From a virus, in the UHGV virus genome UHGV-0213395: DNA of 43,313 bases, one strand, 5' to 3'. Each line of letters starts with the position of its first letter. The stretch's first letter is position 1. Below the pieces are notes generated by a model. The model was not told the origin of the DNA and did no database searches. It was given only the letters and a program-made list of their open reading frames with translations. Both the position numbers and the translations under genes were made by a program. Positions 2,566 through 27,274 of this stretch are shown piece by piece.

Positions 2566-2975
2566 AGCCTCTTGGTGAATGCAATAAAGTTAATTGACAA
2601 TGGTCGTTTGGCCCATCCGTTTTCTACAATCAGCGGCCCCAGGCTAACCGATTGAACCTCGGCGCAGATGTCGTTACGCGAAAATGACTTACCTGCTTTA
2701 AACGCCGTGTTAAGTAAGTCTGCCATTTTATTGATTGGCGCGCTACCTTTCACCGATGCGTAGTTAATGTCTACCTGATAAATACCAGAGCGTTGCTCAG
2801 TGAAGAACAAATCCGCCTGCTCGGTATCTGCCAGTAGCATGTAACTCGCCAGATACGGCGTATCGGTTGACGTCGGCGCGTCGATGTTTTCAAGCGCAAC
2901 CTTGATGCCGTTGGCGGTTCCGAAGGCTACCAGCGGAACATCGAACGCTTTTGTTAAGTCCTCAAAGTAGCCCAT
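2562..2975 (-). CDS. tail terminator / tail completion protein candidate (137 aa)
   Basis: Position immediately upstream of major tail gene; 4-nt overlap with neighbours. Positional call. Confidence 0.45.
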   Translation of the reverse strand: MGYFEDLTKAFDVPLVAFGTANGIKVALENIDAPTSTDTPYLASYMLLADTEQADLFFTEQRSGIYQVDINYASVKGSAPINKMADLLNTAFKAGKSFSRNDICAEVQSVSLGPLIVENGWAKRPLSINFIAFTKRL

Positions 2976-3475
2976 TATTTATACTTCCTCGCTTCTTCTT
3001 CGAGCAGTTTATTGAATCGCTGAACGTTAACCCGGACAACACCTTGCGGAGCCTGAAGGGAATATCCGTCTGTGGTTGTTCTGCTGGGCGCTTTCGGCCT
3101 CAATGGGCCAACAAATTTAGAGCCTAAGTTAGAAGGACGCTTAGGGCCATGGAAGCCGGTAGCGTAACCCCCGAACTCTATAACTTCCGCATACGGCAGA
3201 TTATTTGTCAGGGTGAACTCGCTCCAGTCGGGTAAACCAGACACGGTAGAAACCATGGCACTTATTGCGTTCGCCCCGCTAGGGTCAGTACCGCGGCTTG
3301 TACCGGAAGCGGGGGTACTGCCAGAGGCCATCCAGTTCATTCGGAACCGGCCTGTATCTACCGGACTCGCCTTTATAATAGCGGAAAACAGCTTGATAGA
3401 CACCTGACGCATCACCTTCTCAGGGTTCTTCTTCGCCTTTTCCACGAACTTAGAGACATCAAGCGCGAAACTCAT
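2975..3475 (-). CDS. HK97 gp10-like tail component (166 aa)
   Basis: Contains DTGRFR...LPYAEVIEFG resembling the HK97 gp10 family signature; coupled to neighbours. Confidence 0.5.
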   Translation of the reverse strand: MSFALDVSKFVEKAKKNPEKVMRQVSIKLFSAIIKASPVDTGRFRMNWMASGSTPASGTSRGTDPSGANAISAMVSTVSGLPDWSEFTLTNNLPYAEVIEFGGYATGFHGPKRPSNLGSKFVGPLRPKAPSRTTTDGYSLQAPQGVVRVNVQRFNKLLEEEARKYK

Positions 3476-17223: not shown

Positions 17224-17517
17224 TTATTTATGACGCCAGATGTATTGTCGTCTCTGCGGTTTAGTCGGAATATCATCGTACCCCAGCGATTTCCAGTAAT
17301 TAAATAGCCGGTTCGCGATAGCTGCGCGTTCCTTTGTTTTAAACTCTCCTAGATTCACGGCCTTTCCGTTCTGGAATCCACAGGCGCGGATAGCTTTACG
17401 CCGTTCTTGTATCTCTGGGTACAGCGCGTTACGGCGGCGCTTGTGTATACGTGTCTTCGCTCTCGGTGACAGCGGCGCAAGGCCGCTTCGTTTCAGGATG
17501 TCAGTTGCTAACGACAT
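17224..17517 (-). CDS. hypothetical basic protein (97 aa)
   Basis: Start moved to ATG at 17517, 1 nt past the stop of the upstream paralog gene. Confidence 0.45.
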   Translation of the reverse strand: MSLATDILKRSGLAPLSPRAKTRIHKRRRNALYPEIQERRKAIRACGFQNGKAVNLGEFKTKERAAIANRLFNYWKSLGYDDIPTKPQRRQYIWRHK

Positions 17518-17786
17518 CACTCCACCCCTTCCACATGTGTAACTGACCCACAGTTCGCGCACTCGACGTAATCAGGGTACTGGTCTTTGTATTTCTGTAG
17601 CTCGGCGTTTACTTCTGCCAGTCTCGACACAAGCCCTTCTATTTCCTTGTCGTCGTCGGCTAGACGTTCCTGGTAATAGTCGTCCAGTTCCTTATAGCTG
17701 TCGTACTCTACATAATCGCCGTATGCGTACTCAGCCATCTCAGGCTCTGGCAGGCCCCACGCTTTTACCTCATATCTCTGTACCAT
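17517..17786 (-). CDS. small protein, tandem paralog B (89 aa)
   Basis: Starts MVQRY, ends ELQKYKDQYPDYVECANCGSVTHVEGVE; C-terminus identical to neighbour A. Confidence 0.5.
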   Translation of the reverse strand: MVQRYEVKAWGLPEPEMAEYAYGDYVEYDSYKELDDYYQERLADDDKEIEGLVSRLAEVNAELQKYKDQYPDYVECANCGSVTHVEGVE

Positions 17787-17989
17787 TACTCCACCCCCTC
17801 CACATGTGTAACCGACCCGCAGTTCGCGCACTCGACGTAATCCGGGAACTGGTCCTTGTATTTCTGTAACTCGGCTTCAACTTCCAACAGCTTTAGGTCA
17901 AGATTCTGGTAGTCCTCAAACTTAACCCACTTCCCGTGGCGGTCAATGAAATGGTTGTCGGACCCATACTTAGAATATCTCTGTACCAT
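17786..17989 (-). CDS. small protein, tandem paralog A (67 aa)
   Basis: Start moved to internal ATG (MVQRYSKYG...); ends ELQKYKDQFPDYVECANCGSVTHVEGVE. Confidence 0.45.
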   Translation of the reverse strand: MVQRYSKYGSDNHFIDRHGKWVKFEDYQNLDLKLLEVEAELQKYKDQFPDYVECANCGSVTHVEGVE

Positions 17990-17990
17990 G

Positions 17991-18212
17991 TTATTTCTCC
18001 TGTTTTCCAAGTCGCTTAGGTGAGCAGATAGCGCGTACCTCTGAATCGTTGGGCTTGTCACCCTGAAACAGAAAGTGCGCGTTCTCTGCGGCGCGTGCAG
18101 CTGACTGGCACGCCTCCATCGAGTAAAACGTTTCTGATGCCGCGAGTTGCATCTGGCCTGCGGACAGTACCCAGATAAAGAGGATGCTGGTCATTCGGTT
18201 ATCCATCCACAT
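17991..18212 (-). CDS. small protein with N-terminal hydrophobic/signal-like segment (73 aa)
   Basis: MTSILFIWVLSAGQMQLAA hydrophobic stretch near the N-terminus; overlaps neighbours. Confidence 0.4.
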   Translation of the reverse strand: MWMDNRMTSILFIWVLSAGQMQLAASETFYSMEACQSAARAAENAHFLFQGDKPNDSEVRAICSPKRLGKQEK

Positions 18213-18604
18213 TTAATACAATGACGGTGCACCCCGCTTTCAGGGTATATGTATTCAAAGTCGTGGCGGCACTCCTGCGTATCTTCCTTACGGCAACCAG
18301 ATTGCTCCGGCGGTACAGGCGTCTGTGTGCACCGACAATTTACCGTTGGCCCGGGCGCATGTTCGCCAACCACGTAGCGCTGGCCTGCGGAAACGTACCC
18401 ACCTTTGCGGATAAGTTTATACGCCTCCACGTCACCCGTAGCTTGGGCCAGAGCCAGATGCAACTCCTTAATCTGCGCCGAAGCATCACGTAACTGGTTT
18501 TTAAGTGACTGCACCTCATGCGCCATGTCTTCGCACTGGTTGTTATTTACCTGCTGCCGTAGCTGGTCAATCAGGTACTCGAATACTTCGTTTTTAGTGT
18601 TCAC
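18191..18604 (-). CDS. coiled-coil plus Cys-rich zinc-finger-like protein (137 aa)
   Basis: N-terminal heptad region; C-terminal CRC...C...C...CIKCG cysteine cluster; GTG start. Confidence 0.55.
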   Translation of the reverse strand: MNTKNEVFEYLIDQLRQQVNNNQCEDMAHEVQSLKNQLRDASAQIKELHLALAQATGDVEAYKLIRKGGYVSAGQRYVVGEHAPGPTVNCRCTQTPVPPEQSGCRKEDTQECRHDFEYIYPESGVHRHCIKCGWITE

Positions 18605-19033: not shown

Positions 19034-19064
19034 ATTCTGTCTCTCCTCTCGTTTGTGTAAATGA

Positions 19065-19170: not shown

Positions 19171-19206
19171 AAAATGAGAAAAATGATACGCTGCTGTGTA
19201 GCAGCG
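19171..19206 (-). terminator. rho-independent terminator after DUF551-like gene
   Basis: CGCTGCT-GTGT-AGCAGCG stem followed on the minus strand by a U-rich tract. Confidence 0.6.
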
Positions 19207-19210
19207 TAGG

Positions 19211-24759: not shown

Positions 24760-25103
24760 CGGATAAATGGTGGCTTAATCTGCGTAGTGGTGACAAGGTT
24801 TACACCGTCGGTGACCGCAGAAAGAACAGCGGCGTAGCTACTGTGCTACAAAACGGCAAAAAGTACATCCACATTGCGCATGAAGCTCGAGCACTCCGCG
24901 TGAATAAATCGTCTGGAAGACTTGAGGATTACCCGAAAACATTAATATACAAAAGCGAAAAGCATCACATGGCCACTGTTGACGCAAGACGTAAGTTCGC
25001 AGGAATGCTGCAACAGTTAAGCGACTTACATCGTGATGATTCTTTCATCCCCACAGAAGAACAGCTACAGGCATTAAACTTGTATTTGGAGAGTTTACGA
25101 TGA
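24756..25103 (+). CDS. hypothetical protein (115 aa)
   Basis: Start moved to ATG 24756 (ATGA overlap with upstream stop). Confidence 0.55.
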   Translation: MTDKWWLNLRSGDKVYTVGDRRKNSGVATVLQNGKKYIHIAHEARALRVNKSSGRLEDYPKTLIYKSEKHHMATVDARRKFAGMLQQLSDLHRDDSFIPTEEQLQALNLYLESLR

Positions 25104-26380
25104 TTCTAAAAGAACGCGGCGGCAATAACGACGTACACGCCTTACTGTCACCGTCAGGTGCTAAAAAGTGGTTAACCTGCGCCGCATCACTGGCCTGTGA
25201 AAAGGATATTCCTGACACGTCCGGTAAAGCTGCGATATTAGGCACGGCAATGCACACCATAGCCGAGATACACCTTAACCAGTACATCAAAGGCACTGCG
25301 TTGCCATTAGAACGTGAAGTCGGCGCTTATGTACTGGACGAAGGAAAAGGCCAGATTAAGGCGTTAATCAGCCCTATGAAAGGCGCGGTACTGATTACGG
25401 CTGACATGATTGAACAGGTTCGCAAGTACACCGACTACTGCAAAGCGATTATCGATGTAGCGACTTACGCCAAGCTGGAAATGCGTGTCAATCTTACTGA
25501 GGTATTGCATCCGGGCTACAAAGTACCTGCTGAGAGTGAAGAAGGTAAGGAGGATGATTTAGAGACATTCGGGACAGCCGACTTAGTGGCGGTTATAGAA
25601 GGCTTTACAGGTGAAAGTAACTCCGCGATGCTCATTATCGGCGACCTTAAAACAGGACGGCATCGCGTCGAAGCGAAAGAAAACAAGCAGCTTATGCTTT
25701 ACGCTCTCGGTGTTTATCGTCGACTCAAGAGACGTTATAACATAACAACCGTTCGTCTGGTCATCTTCCAGCCTTACGCTGGGGGCGCGACAGAGTGGGA
25801 CATCTCGGTTGAAGGACTGGAACTGTTCGCTAAGTTCGCACAGAAACGCGCGCTGTTAGCGCTTGATGCGTATTTCCGTGGCAAGAAGAACCTGAAAGCG
25901 TCGGACTTCAAGCCATCGGTAGATGGTTGTCAGTGGTGCCGGTTCTCTGAACAATGCGCTGCGCGTACAAAGACGGTTAATTCTGTACTGGCGGAAGAAC
26001 TGGAAGACGACTTTGTGCTGGAACTGACGCCGGAGCAACTCGTAGCTGAGTATGAGAAGTTGCCGCTGTTGCGCCAGCACATCGACAAGGTTGAGAAAGC
26101 TATGGCGGCCGCGTTGCATTCAGGTAAGAAAGTTCCTGGTTACAAGTTGGTTGAAGGCCGCCCAGGTAATCGTGCATGGAAAGACGCGGAGAAAGTAACA
26201 GAACTCTACGGCGACAAGCTGACTAAAGAAGTGCTCATGTCACCTACCGAAGCTGTTAAAGTCATACCGGAAGAAGAACTGAAAGACTTCATTACCCGTA
26301 AGCCAGGCGCACCATGTGTCGCAACGGCAGACGACAAACGTCCTGAGTGGAATCAGGTAACAGAGGAGGATTTGGAATGA
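25100..26380 (+). CDS. PD-(D/E)XK nuclease with Cys cluster (RecB/Cas4-like recombination exonuclease, 426 aa)
   Basis: GTADLV ... IGDLKTG nuclease motifs; cysteines at WLTCAASLAC and CQWCRFSEQC; C-terminus ...QVTEEDLE. Confidence 0.65.
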   Translation: MILKERGGNNDVHALLSPSGAKKWLTCAASLACEKDIPDTSGKAAILGTAMHTIAEIHLNQYIKGTALPLEREVGAYVLDEGKGQIKALISPMKGAVLITADMIEQVRKYTDYCKAIIDVATYAKLEMRVNLTEVLHPGYKVPAESEEGKEDDLETFGTADLVAVIEGFTGESNSAMLIIGDLKTGRHRVEAKENKQLMLYALGVYRRLKRRYNITTVRLVIFQPYAGGATEWDISVEGLELFAKFAQKRALLALDAYFRGKKNLKASDFKPSVDGCQWCRFSEQCAARTKTVNSVLAEELEDDFVLELTPEQLVAEYEKLPLLRQHIDKVEKAMAAALHSGKKVPGYKLVEGRPGNRAWKDAEKVTELYGDKLTKEVLMSPTEAVKVIPEEELKDFITRKPGAPCVATADDKRPEWNQVTEEDLE

Positions 26381-26647: not shown

Positions 26648-27274
26648 ATGGGCATTAAACTGAATCTGCGTAAAGTAAACACTGCATGGGTTAACGTATT
26701 CGAACGCGAAAAAGACCGTGAAAACGACGACGGCTCAATCACTAAAGGCCAGTACAGCGCAACTATCATCCTGCCGTCTGACCATGCTCAAATCGACGCG
26801 CTCTACGACACCGTTTACGCTGTGGTTGAAGAAGCGTTGGGTGCAGCCGCCGCAGAGAAATGGATGAAGTCAAACTACGGCGAAGGCAAGCACATGGATA
26901 AATGCGCGATTAAGGACATCGCCGAGCGCGACAATCCGTTTGAAGACTTCCCGGAAGGTTTCTACTTCAAAGCGAAAGCGCAGAAACAACCTCTGATTGT
27001 AACATCTAAAAAAGGCGAAACTCAGGTAGAACCAGACTTCAATGTAGAAGGCGAACAGATTGAAGGTGAACAGGTGTACAGTGGCTGCGTCGCTAACGTA
27101 AGCGTTGAAATCTGGTTCAGCCAGAAATATAAAGTACTCGGCGTTAACCTGCTGGCAATTAAGTACGTTGGCGAAGGTAAAGCGTTTGGAGGCTCTAAAG
27201 TTGCTGCAAGCGTCGACGACCTGGAAGACGACGAAGAAGATGAAGCACCGCGCCGCGAACGTCGCCGCCGTTAA
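26648..27274 (+). CDS. SSB-like ssDNA-binding protein candidate with acidic C-terminal tail (208 aa)
   Basis: Sits between nuclease and polymerase as in DUF2800/DUF2815/PolA-type modules; C-terminal DDLEDDEEDE then basic tail. Confidence 0.5.
   Translation: MGIKLNLRKVNTAWVNVFEREKDRENDDGSITKGQYSATIILPSDHAQIDALYDTVYAVVEEALGAAAAEKWMKSNYGEGKHMDKCAIKDIAERDNPFEDFPEGFYFKAKAQKQPLIVTSKKGETQVEPDFNVEGEQIEGEQVYSGCVANVSVEIWFSQKYKVLGVNLLAIKYVGEGKAFGGSKVAASVDDLEDDEEDEAPRRERRRR

What the first reader, a model, noticed from the sequence alone, without database searches (positions are those of the whole stretch)
17517..17989. Tandem paralogs sharing an identical 30-aa C-terminus and ~90 bp of near-identical DNA
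Adjacent genes 17786..17989 and 17517..17786 both start MVQRY and end ELQKYKDQ(F/Y)PDYVECANCGSVTHVEGVE. The nucleotide repeats at about 17517-17610 and 17786-17880 are roughly 90% identical. The N-terminal extensions in the ORF track (MREL.V.YTCG.GGVM) are read-through of the repeat in another frame. This suggests recent duplication or a recombination-prone variable module.
Basis: seen in the sequence. Interest (0 to 1): 0.45.

Follow-up and report, generated by a model that had tools for sequence, protein, structure and literature searches.

The report
Shuffled small-protein genes sharing one tail
Two neighbouring small phage genes end in the same 30 amino acids because both are mix-and-match products of a heavily recombined family of dispensable, uncharacterised proteins, not because one was recently copied from the other.

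Summary
Genes 17786..17989(-) (67 aa) and 17517..17786(-) (89 aa) both start MVQRY. They share a 29-30 aa C-terminus with one F/Y difference, encoded by a 101-nt direct repeat (90/101 identical).

"Recent duplication" is not supported. The two copies are no closer to each other (84/93 nt) than to copies in other phages (86-90/93). Differences are almost all synonymous, and the N-terminal two thirds are unrelated.

The window is a Kagunavirus-like coliphage. The genes sit in a slot that holds 0-3 genes of one family. That family is built combinatorially:
- a conserved MVQRY...G-x-W/Y-V-x-Y-E-D-Y scaffold around a hypervariable loop;
- an optional coiled-coil insert;
- one of about 20 alternative tails.

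The CANCG tail occurs with 27 of 33 loop types. Gene B combines the head of a "second-slot" allele (identical to Bas72 gene 2 for ~93 nt) with a "first-slot" long tail.

Function is unknown: no Pfam family, no named homologue and no fold match. My inference is an accessory coiled-coil oligomer with a half zinc-knuckle tail and a variable target-binding head.

This is ordinary phage mosaicism in an unusually clear, uncharacterised family.

The parts
17786..17989 (-). Gene A, 67 aa: head MVQRYSKYGSDNHFIDRHGKWVKFEDY, short helix, then the CANCG tail
   Evidence: Full-length match to phrog_29624 (unknown function), E 9e-24. The same gene is the only slot gene in Bas74 and Bas73.
17517..17786 (-). 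Gene B, 89 aa: a chimera of a second-slot head, a long coiled-coil insert and the CANCG tail
   Evidence: phrog_29624 matches only residues 56-89. AF2 model, pLDDT 80: small beta region 1-25, helix 28-69, beta-hairpin 73-84.
17700..17786 (-). Head module of B (aa 1-29, MVQRYEVKAWGLPEPEMAEYAYGDYVEYD)
   Evidence: Essentially identical in DNA to the start of Bas72 gene 2 up to ...GAC (D29), then unrelated. In relatives the same head normally carries the ...REILGI tail in slot 2.
17610..17699 (-). Coiled-coil insert of B (aa 30-59, SYKELDDYYQERLADDDKEIEGLVSRLAEV)
   Evidence: Homologous to the insert of first-slot genes in L007, L008 and L040 and of many database proteins. Hydrophobic residues fall in an a/d heptad pattern, read directly from the sequence.
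17515..17615 (-). Repeat copy 1: tail module of B, its TGA stop and the ATG of the next gene
17784..17884 (-). Repeat copy 2: tail module of A, its TAA stop and the ATG of B
17772..17786 (-). 15-nt start box ATGGTACAGAGATAT (MVQRY) of B. The purine-rich GGAGGGGGTGGAG just upstream (17789-17801) is both the HVEGVE codons of A and a Shine-Dalgarno-like stretch for B.
   Evidence: Start-box codons are largely shared across the family.
17975..17989 (-). 15-nt start box of A, preceded by AGGAG
17224..17517 (-). Conserved downstream flank of the slot: 97-aa basic protein (phrog_9632)
17991..18194 (-). Conserved upstream flank of the slot: 67-aa protein with a hydrophobic N-terminus (phrog_3766)

Best explanation
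A and B are two intact members of one modular family of small accessory proteins. They occupy a variable-copy slot of a Kagunavirus-like phage, between the phrog_3766 gene and the phrog_9632 gene.

Each family protein has three parts:
(1) a constant two-strand scaffold, MVQRY ... G-x-[WY]-V-x-Y-E-D-Y, that frames a hypervariable loop;
(2) a coiled-coil helix of variable length;
(3) one of about 20 interchangeable tails.

The shared 30 aa is the commonest tail. It consists of the last heptads of the coiled coil followed by a beta-hairpin knuckle, E-C-A-N-C-G-x3-H. It is kept almost invariant by selection on the protein. Its last codons (HVEGVE plus stop) also supply the ribosome-binding stretch and the overlapping start of the next gene.

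The tandem same-tail pair did not arise by local duplication. Gene B is a recombinant that joins the head of a second-slot allele to the long tail of a first-slot allele. A single non-allelic crossover at the conserved Y-x-Y-(E/D)-D-Y region between two co-infecting relatives would produce it.

Shown: the modular anatomy, the combinatorial distribution, the breakpoint, the purifying selection and the dispensability of the slot.

Inferred: the proteins form coiled-coil oligomers. Two CxxC(H) half-sites may share a zinc ion. The variable loop binds a host target (host takeover or anti-defence). A and B could co-assemble through their identical tails.
For: Phage identity and slot variation:
- The closest records are Kagunavirus.
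- The slot holds 0, 1, 2 or 3 family genes in 19, 21, 14 and 1 of 55 loci (heuristic count). Bas74 and Bas73 have A only; Bas72 has A plus another gene; NTEC3 and 590B have A, B and a third gene.

Combinatorial shuffling:
- 256 unique family proteins fall into 33 loop clusters and 21 tail clusters, giving 74 combinations.
- The CANCG tail occurs with 27 loop clusters.
- 112 complete 2x2 head/tail rectangles are observed.
- Searches show the same pattern in the sequences themselves.

Breakpoint:
- B is identical to Bas72 gene 2 for about 93 nt. After that it follows the first-slot long tails.

No recent duplication or conversion:
- A vs B tail is 84/93 nt, against 86-90/93 to copies in other genomes.

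Protein-level selection:
- Among 27 unique tail DNAs, variable sites number 4, 7 and 17 at codon positions 1, 2 and 3.
- Within the window the tails differ by 6 synonymous changes, 1 replacement and the stop codon.

Junction as a joint:
- In L020 a different tail ends in ...EHVEGVE when it sits in slot 1, but in ...EHEPRN when it sits in slot 2 in L008.

Ongoing rearrangement:
- XY2 carries an out-of-frame remnant of B between two intact genes.
- L006, L034 and L039 carry fusions of the tail to other modules.

Structure:
- The AF2 model of B has a small beta region, a 42-residue helix and a C-terminal hairpin with CANCG at the turn.
- In distant relatives the E-C-x-x-C-G knuckle is paired with a second CxxC (P0260) or H/C/H ligands (P0242), or lies between two helices (P0262).

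Loop variability:
- In the 58-aa subfamily, 4-6 different residues occur at four hairpin-tip positions and 1-2 everywhere else.

Recombination machinery:
- The phage encodes an exonuclease and a Gp2.5-like annealing protein.
Against: - There is no functional evidence at all. Pfam has no family above cut-off and PADLOC nothing significant.
- All database homologues are 'hypothetical'.
- The tail has only three candidate zinc ligands per chain, and the hairpin is modelled at low confidence (pLDDT 50-60). The model of gene A is poor (pLDDT 64).
- Oligomerisation and hetero-assembly were not modelled.
- The identity ranking rests on 93 nt.
- Loop hypervariability was read from representatives of 90%-identity clusters, which biases towards variable sequences. 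No dN/dS was computed.
- The slot count uses a motif heuristic that missed a few genes (for example in L011, L036 and L039).
Confidence: 0.7

Rival explanations
1. A recent tandem duplication of one gene occurred in this genome, followed by rapid divergence of the N-terminal part.
For: The two genes are adjacent, in the same orientation, with the same start box and the same tail.
Against: The tail copies are the most divergent pair in the comparison (84/93) and carry 6 synonymous differences. The heads are unrelated. Each head occurs on its own in other phages with other tails. Gene B occurs without A in L004, and A without B in Bas73 and Bas74.
Confidence: 0.03
2. Gene conversion (concerted evolution) between the two neighbours keeps their 3' ends alike.
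For: A 101-nt direct repeat 269 nt apart, with a 23-nt exact core, is a possible substrate. The phage has an annealing protein and an exonuclease.
Against: Similarity within the genome is not higher than between genomes. B keeps its lineage marker (Y instead of F) in the window, NTEC3, L004, XY2 and 590B, while A keeps F.
Confidence: 0.05
3. The repeat is conserved as a DNA or RNA element rather than as protein. Candidates are a ribosome-binding/translational-coupling cassette, a recombination or homing-endonuclease site, or a structured RNA.
For: The last ~15 nt (GGGGTGGAGTRATG) are Shine-Dalgarno-like and overlap the next start. The HVEGVE end is transplanted onto another tail in L020. An HNH homing endonuclease sits two genes upstream in NTEC3.
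Against: Variation across 27 copies is concentrated at third codon positions, so the whole 90 nt is constrained as coding sequence. RNA folds of both junctions are no more stable than shuffles (z +0.9 to +1.2). There are no Rfam matches. No promoter-like or strong terminator-like site lies at the junctions.
Confidence: 0.1
4. The pair is an assembly artefact: two allelic variants from a mixed phage population were joined in tandem.
For: The two genes look like alleles of one locus, and the repeat could mislead an assembler.
Against: The A-B order is present in independently sequenced isolates NTEC3, SCS92 and 590B. XY2 carries B next to another CANCG gene. The junctions are clean, in-frame stop/start overlaps.
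Confidence: 0.02

Closest known systems
Modular shuffling in hyperplastic regions of T4-type phages through repeated PeSL cassettes (Arbiol et al. 2010, PMC2839356)
   Same: A region of small, dispensable, mostly unknown genes. Short conserved sequences recur at gene boundaries, and insertion, deletion and replacement events map to them. Direct repeats flank a gene.
   Different: The repeated unit here is coding sequence (a protein tail, a stop/start overlap and a 15-nt start box). It is not a promoter plus terminator stem-loop: none was found at the junctions. Exchanges also occur inside the genes, at a conserved protein motif. Mini-circles were not examined.
General mosaicism of tailed phages: exchange at short conserved boundary sequences, helped by phage single-strand-annealing recombinases.
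   Same: Non-allelic exchange at short, imperfect homology. The phage encodes its own exonuclease and annealing protein.
   Different: The exchange here is at sub-gene, domain scale within 58-117 aa proteins, and gives a near-combinatorial head x tail matrix.
phrog_29624 (PHROGs v4, unknown function)
   Same: Gene A matches over its full length (E 9e-24). Gene B matches over the tail (E 2e-19).
   Different: The PHROG captures only one head-tail combination. The superfamily defined by the head scaffold is wider: 1203 clusters at E <= 0.01.
Rad50-type zinc hook (CxxC half-site at the end of a coiled coil, completed by a second chain). The comparison is from my own knowledge and is an analogy only.
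   Same: A coiled coil leads directly into a CxxC turn. A single chain has too few ligands for a full tetrahedral site. In relative P0262 the knuckle lies between two helices.
Lar restriction-alleviation protein family (Pfam PF14354)
   Same: A small phage or prophage protein with a CxxC knuckle. There are weak sub-threshold hits to the tail (E ~0.1).
   Different: Scores of 13 bits against a 28.6-bit cut-off, so A and B are not members.

Membership tests
phrog_29624 | Significant full-length match to the profile | tested here: met
   A matches residues 1-67 to profile positions 1-60 of 60, E 9.1e-24. B matches only residues 56-89 to positions 27-60, E 1.9e-19. A is a member. B is a member through its tail only.
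MVQRY-head superfamily (defined here) | N-terminal M-V-x-R-Y, then within about 10-30 residues G-x-[WY]-V-x-Y-E-D-Y-x-x-L leading into a helix | tested here: met
   Both A and B have it. The profile finds 1203 clusters, all unnamed, on contigs of ~41-45 kb.
Lar_restr_allev (PF14354) | Score above Pfam gathering cut-off (28.6 bits) | tested here: not met
   13.2 and 13.5 bits, E ~0.1
PeSL-type regulatory cassette (T4-type hyperplastic regions) | Strong sigma-70-like promoter plus a terminator stem-loop in the repeated unit | tested here: not met
   No promoter-like or terminator-like site at 17500-17620 or 17770-17890 on the coding strand. Junction RNAs are not more stable than shuffles.
Zinc hook / zinc knuckle | Metal coordination by CxxC (plus His or a second chain) | not testable with these tools
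   The C-x2-C-x4-H motif is invariant or nearly so. AF2 places it on a beta-hairpin turn at low confidence. No structural match was found.
Recent tandem duplicate (paralog pair by local duplication) | Copies in the same genome are each other's closest relatives | tested here: not met
   84/93 within the genome, against 89-90/93 to counterparts in other genomes
Known anti-defence or defence protein families (PADLOC-DB) | Significant profile match | tested here: not met
   Only LmuB at E 0.018 over a coiled-coil stretch of B; nothing for A

The most novel reading that the evidence does not exclude
The slot encodes a natural combinatorial library of small adaptor or inhibitor proteins. A hypervariable hairpin loop on a fixed two-strand scaffold recognises host (possibly defence) targets. 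Interchangeable tails specify what happens next. Proteins with the same coiled-coil/half-zinc-knuckle tail, such as A and B here, co-assemble into hetero-oligomers that carry two different heads.
Probability: 0.15. Interest if true: 0.65.

Novelty: new member of a known kind. Interest (0 to 1): 0.35.

Why it matters
The pair itself is a routine outcome of phage mosaicism. The family behind it is more useful.

It is a compact, very clear example of domain-scale shuffling at conserved motifs: 33 loop types by 21 tails in proteins of 60-100 aa.

The genes are dispensable and uncharacterised, and their variability is focused on one loop. Genes with this profile in phage genomes have often turned out to be host-takeover or anti-defence factors.

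Kagunavirus phages are now in the BASEL collection and are being used for synthetic biology (PMC11990801). Deletion and swap experiments are therefore feasible.

Tried and rejected
- A profile search of 1.84 billion representatives found only 55 hits. Its main value was a few distant relatives with complete zinc sites or fused tandem heads.
- RNA or DNA element at the junctions: no stable fold, no Rfam family, no promoter or terminator.
- Link to the BASEL phenotype (growth on K-12 with cryptic prophages): rejected. Bas73 grows and Bas74 does not, yet both have only gene A.
- Literature on Kagunavirus: nothing found on these genes.
- A diversity-generating retroelement was considered for the variable loop. 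I did not test it. The loops differ in length and overall sequence, which fits module replacement better.
- AP2-like nature of the downstream 97-aa protein: only a 10-residue similarity to the NTEC3 HNH endonuclease (E 0.024). Left as a lead.

Full report
**1. The observation**

The region was read on both strands. Two minus-strand genes lie head to tail:
- A, 17786..17989, 67 aa: MVQRYSKYGSDNHFIDRHGKWVKFEDYQNLDLKLLEVEAELQKYKDQFPDYVECANCGSVTHVEGVE.
- B, 17517..17786, 89 aa: MVQRYEVKAWGLPEPEMAEYAYGDYVEYDSYKELDDYYQERLADDDKEIEGLVSRLAEVNAELQKYKDQYPDYVECANCGSVTHVEGVE.

The repeat finder reports a 101-nt direct repeat (17515-17615 and 17784-17884, 89% identical). It also reports an exact 15-nt repeat at the two starts. 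I count 90/101 identical with a longest exact run of 23 nt. That 23-mer occurs twice in the window, against 0 expected in shuffles.

The stop of A overlaps the ATG of B (TAATG). The stop of B overlaps the ATG of the next gene (TGATG). The 'MREL...GGVM' extensions come from a GTG inside the repeat read in another frame.

**2. Where this is**

The window matches Kagunavirus phages (Guernseyvirinae) of Escherichia and Salmonella.

On the minus strand the gene order is:
- a run of small unknown genes;
- a coiled-coil/zinc-ribbon protein (18191..18604);
- a 67-aa protein with a hydrophobic N-terminus (17991..18194, phrog_3766);
- A and B;
- a 97-aa basic protein (17224..17517, phrog_9632);
- holins and the endolysin.

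**3. Variation among relatives**

Annotated relatives differ exactly at this position:
- Bas74 and Bas73 have A only.
- Bas72 and Bas71 have a first gene with the same tail plus a second gene with another tail.
- Bas70 and KMB35 have A plus yet another second gene.
- NTEC3 and 590B have A, B and a third gene.

I anchored 63 IMG/VR loci on the 97-aa gene. In the 55 loci that have both flanks, the slot holds 0, 1, 2 or 3 family genes in 19, 21, 14 and 1 loci. This is a heuristic count that missed a few genes. Empty slots show that the genes are dispensable.

A tblastn search of the tail against 50,697 phage records finds it in 101 records, at 109 places. Two or more copies occur only in the NTEC3/SCS92/590B group, in XY2, and in one 164-kb record that is probably concatenated.

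**4. The family is modular**

All slot genes share M-V-Q-R-Y and, 10-30 residues later, G-x-[WY]-V-x-Y-E-D-Y-x-x-L. Between these two motifs lies a loop that is unrelated from one type to the next. After them comes a helix of variable length. Several alternative inserts occur there, for example KELD..FQDYITTTDMEIEGLVxRLAEVN. The protein ends in one of many tails: the CANCG tail...REILGI...EKYRNEPCN...YELGILL...AEIVEHEPRN and others.

On 256 unique proteins I get 33 loop clusters and 21 tail clusters, with 74 observed combinations. The CANCG tail occurs with 27 loop clusters. All four head-tail combinations are seen for 112 pairs of heads and tails. That is a four-gamete-type signature of repeated recombination between head and tail.

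The head of A also occurs with the long insert (P0009). The head of B occurs with the ...REILGI tail in at least eight loci.

**5. Origin of gene B**

In a DNA alignment, B is identical to Bas72 gene 2 from the ribosome-binding site through codon 29 (...TAC GAC) and unrelated afterwards. From there it follows the long tails of first-slot genes of L007, L008 and L040.

In every two-gene array I inspected, the CANCG-tail gene comes first and a gene with another tail comes second. So B is a second-slot head that has acquired a first-slot tail.

One non-allelic crossover at the conserved Y-x-Y-(E/D)-D-Y region would give exactly [A][B][97-aa gene]. The partners would be the slot-2 gene of a Bas72-like phage and the slot-1 gene of an L040-like phage. 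This step is inferred, not observed.

**6. Not a recent duplication, not gene conversion**

Over the 93 nt of tail, A and B of the window share 84 positions. A shares 89 with A of NTEC3 and Bas72. B shares 90 with B of NTEC3 and L004. Most other inter-genome comparisons give 86-88.

B keeps Y at the F/Y position in all five genomes that carry it, and A keeps F.

Within the window the tails differ by six synonymous changes, one F/Y replacement and the stop codon. Across 27 unique tail DNAs, variable sites number 4, 7 and 17 at codon positions 1, 2 and 3. The tail is therefore conserved as protein.

The comparison rests on few sites, so the ranking is indicative only. Nothing points to homogenisation within the genome.

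**7. Signs of ongoing rearrangement**

- XY2 has, between an intact CANCG gene and an intact B, a 47-codon remnant. It is made of the first 14 codons of B joined out of frame to the tail DNA.
- In L006 the last 14 residues of the tail are fused to the upstream zinc-ribbon protein at a C-D-N-C-G knuckle.
- In L034 and L039 the tail runs on into a C-x-H...C-x-x-C module otherwise found in the upstream gene.
- In L020 another tail ends ...EHVEGVE when it sits in slot 1, instead of ...EHEPRN as in slot 2 of L008. The HVEGVE-stop-ATGGTACAG junction therefore behaves as a joint of its own.
- The phage encodes an exonuclease and a Gp2.5-like annealing protein. This is the kind of machinery known to recombine short, imperfect homologies; that statement is from my own knowledge.

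**8. DNA or RNA element?**

The last ~15 nt of the tail are purine-rich (GGAGGGGGTGGAG) and sit just before the next ATG. They therefore plausibly serve as the ribosome-binding stretch for the downstream gene, read directly from the sequence.

Beyond that I found nothing. There is no promoter- or terminator-like site at the junctions. The RNA folds are no more stable than shuffles. There is no Rfam match.

**9. What the proteins may do**

No curated or solved-structure library gave a usable match for function; the individual searches are listed under what was tried and rejected. Section 10 gives the family's size and distribution.

AlphaFold2 with the family alignment gives B a small beta region (1-25), one helix (28-69) and a C-terminal beta-hairpin (73-84) with C-A-N-C-G at the turn. 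Mean pLDDT is 80 and the hairpin is modelled at 50-60. The model of A is weaker (pLDDT 64) but has the same topology.

Hydrophobic residues of the helix follow an a/d heptad pattern up to F/Y70, read directly from the sequence, so an oligomeric coiled coil is likely.

The tail offers only C, C and H as metal ligands. Distant relatives pair the same E-C-x-x-C-G knuckle with a second C-x-x-C (P0260) or with H/C/H (P0242), or place it between two helices (P0262). That supports a zinc-knuckle reading. It also suggests the Kagunavirus tail is a half-site that would need a partner chain. This is an inference.

In the 58-aa subfamily, variation is confined to four positions at the hairpin tip, with 4-6 residue types there and 1-2 elsewhere. 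That is what a binding surface under diversifying pressure would look like. However, the sample is made of cluster representatives, and no codon test was done.

My best guess, at about 30% confidence for this functional part, has three elements:
- these are accessory oligomeric proteins whose variable head binds a host factor;
- the tail mediates assembly or a common downstream interaction;
- A and B, having the same tail, could co-assemble.

**10. Comparison with what is known**

The behaviour is that of a phage hyperplastic region. The closest described mechanism is PeSL-mediated shuffling in T4-type phages (PMC2839356). The repeated unit here is coding sequence, not a promoter/terminator cassette, so it works like that system but is not a member of it.

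A is a member of phrog_29624; B is a member only through its tail. Lar (PF14354) membership fails on score. The zinc-hook comparison is an analogy only.

**11. Verdict**

The finding is real and now explained at the level of gene history. It is a rare same-tail pairing produced by module exchange in a combinatorially shuffled, dispensable family.

- The phenomenon is known.
- The family is uncharacterised and small: 55 representatives at 50% identity in 1.84 billion proteins. In the 5.8-billion-protein collection, clustered at 90% identity, there are 1203 clusters, and the listed contigs are about the size of these phage genomes.
- Interest is modest (0.35). It would be higher if the head-loop/tail logic proves to be a host-targeting system.

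Noticed in passing
window 18191-18604 (-), and its homologues in L001-L041: The gene two positions upstream has a conserved N-terminus (M(S/N)xKNEVFEYLIDQLRQQV), a coiled coil, and a variable number of C-x-H...C-x-x-C zinc-ribbon-like modules. The modules are joined by a conserved linker (E)QSGCRKED(T/A)QEC. Its C-terminal modules differ between relatives, which is the same 'conserved joint, swapped module' pattern seen in the MVQRY family.
   Followed up: partly
L072/L073 (Escherichia phage vB_EcoS_XY2, record end joined to record start): A 47-codon out-of-frame remnant lies between an intact CANCG-tail gene and an intact copy of B. It consists of the first 14 codons of gene B followed by tail DNA read in another frame. 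It is a footprint of a partial duplication or deletion.
   Followed up: yes
L006 (-614..0 relative to the 97-aa gene); L012 (-347..0); L071 (590B) 1011-1388: Deletion fusions. In L006 the upstream coiled-coil protein ends in ...VVCDNCGSVTHVEGVE; the phrog_3766 gene and the MVQRY head are lost. In L012 and 590B the coiled-coil protein is fused in frame to the C-terminal part of the phrog_3766 protein.
   Followed up: partly
L001 (NTEC3) 2701-3174 (-): An HNH homing endonuclease with an AP2-like C-terminus is inserted between the phrog_3766 gene and the coiled-coil gene. It is absent from the window and from Bas72 and Bas74. It could promote local exchange.
   Followed up: no
window 17224-17517 (-): The conserved 97-aa protein downstream of the slot is very basic at its N-terminus. 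It contains NGKAVNLGEF..ERAAIA, which resembles the AP2-type DNA-binding segment of the NTEC3 HNH endonuclease (only 10 residues aligned, E 0.024). It may be a DNA-binding regulator placed just before the lysis genes.
   Followed up: partly
between window 17148 and 17224; L001 1065-1502; L068 162-602; L071 2387-2827: An HslV-like peptidase / 'ATP-dependent protease' gene sits between the 97-aa gene and the holins in NTEC3, Bas73, 590B and XY2. It is absent from the window, Bas70, Bas71, Bas72 and Bas74. This is another presence/absence polymorphism.
   Followed up: no
P0255, P0252, P0237, P0240: Distant relatives from metagenomes carry two MVxRY...YV.YEDY heads within one polypeptide of 171-231 aa. 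These are tandem family genes fused into one protein.
   Followed up: no
P0217, P0234, P0237, P0240; upstream genes of L032 and L037: A recurrent ~55-aa C-terminal module (E)AWTVW.GGENPVPG..V..K.RDG......W......DIIAYRVV is appended to some CANCG tails and to some upstream coiled-coil proteins. It is one more shuffled module of unknown function.
   Followed up: no
window 25100-26380 (+) and 26648-27274 (+): The window encodes an exonuclease (phrog_69) and a Gp2.5-like ssDNA-binding/annealing protein (phrog_112). This is a phage-encoded recombination pair that could drive exchange at short homologies.
   Followed up: partly
L005, about 1404-1222 nt upstream of the 97-aa gene: An ORF with the peptide repeat (CNRW)x6 indicates a 12-nt tandem DNA repeat in that relative's early region.
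   Followed up: no
window 19187-19208 (-) and 19034-19061 (-): A terminator-like hairpin is followed by a weak promoter-like site about 1 kb upstream of the slot on the coding strand. These may delimit the transcription unit that contains the slot and the lysis genes. They are consensus matches only.
   Followed up: no
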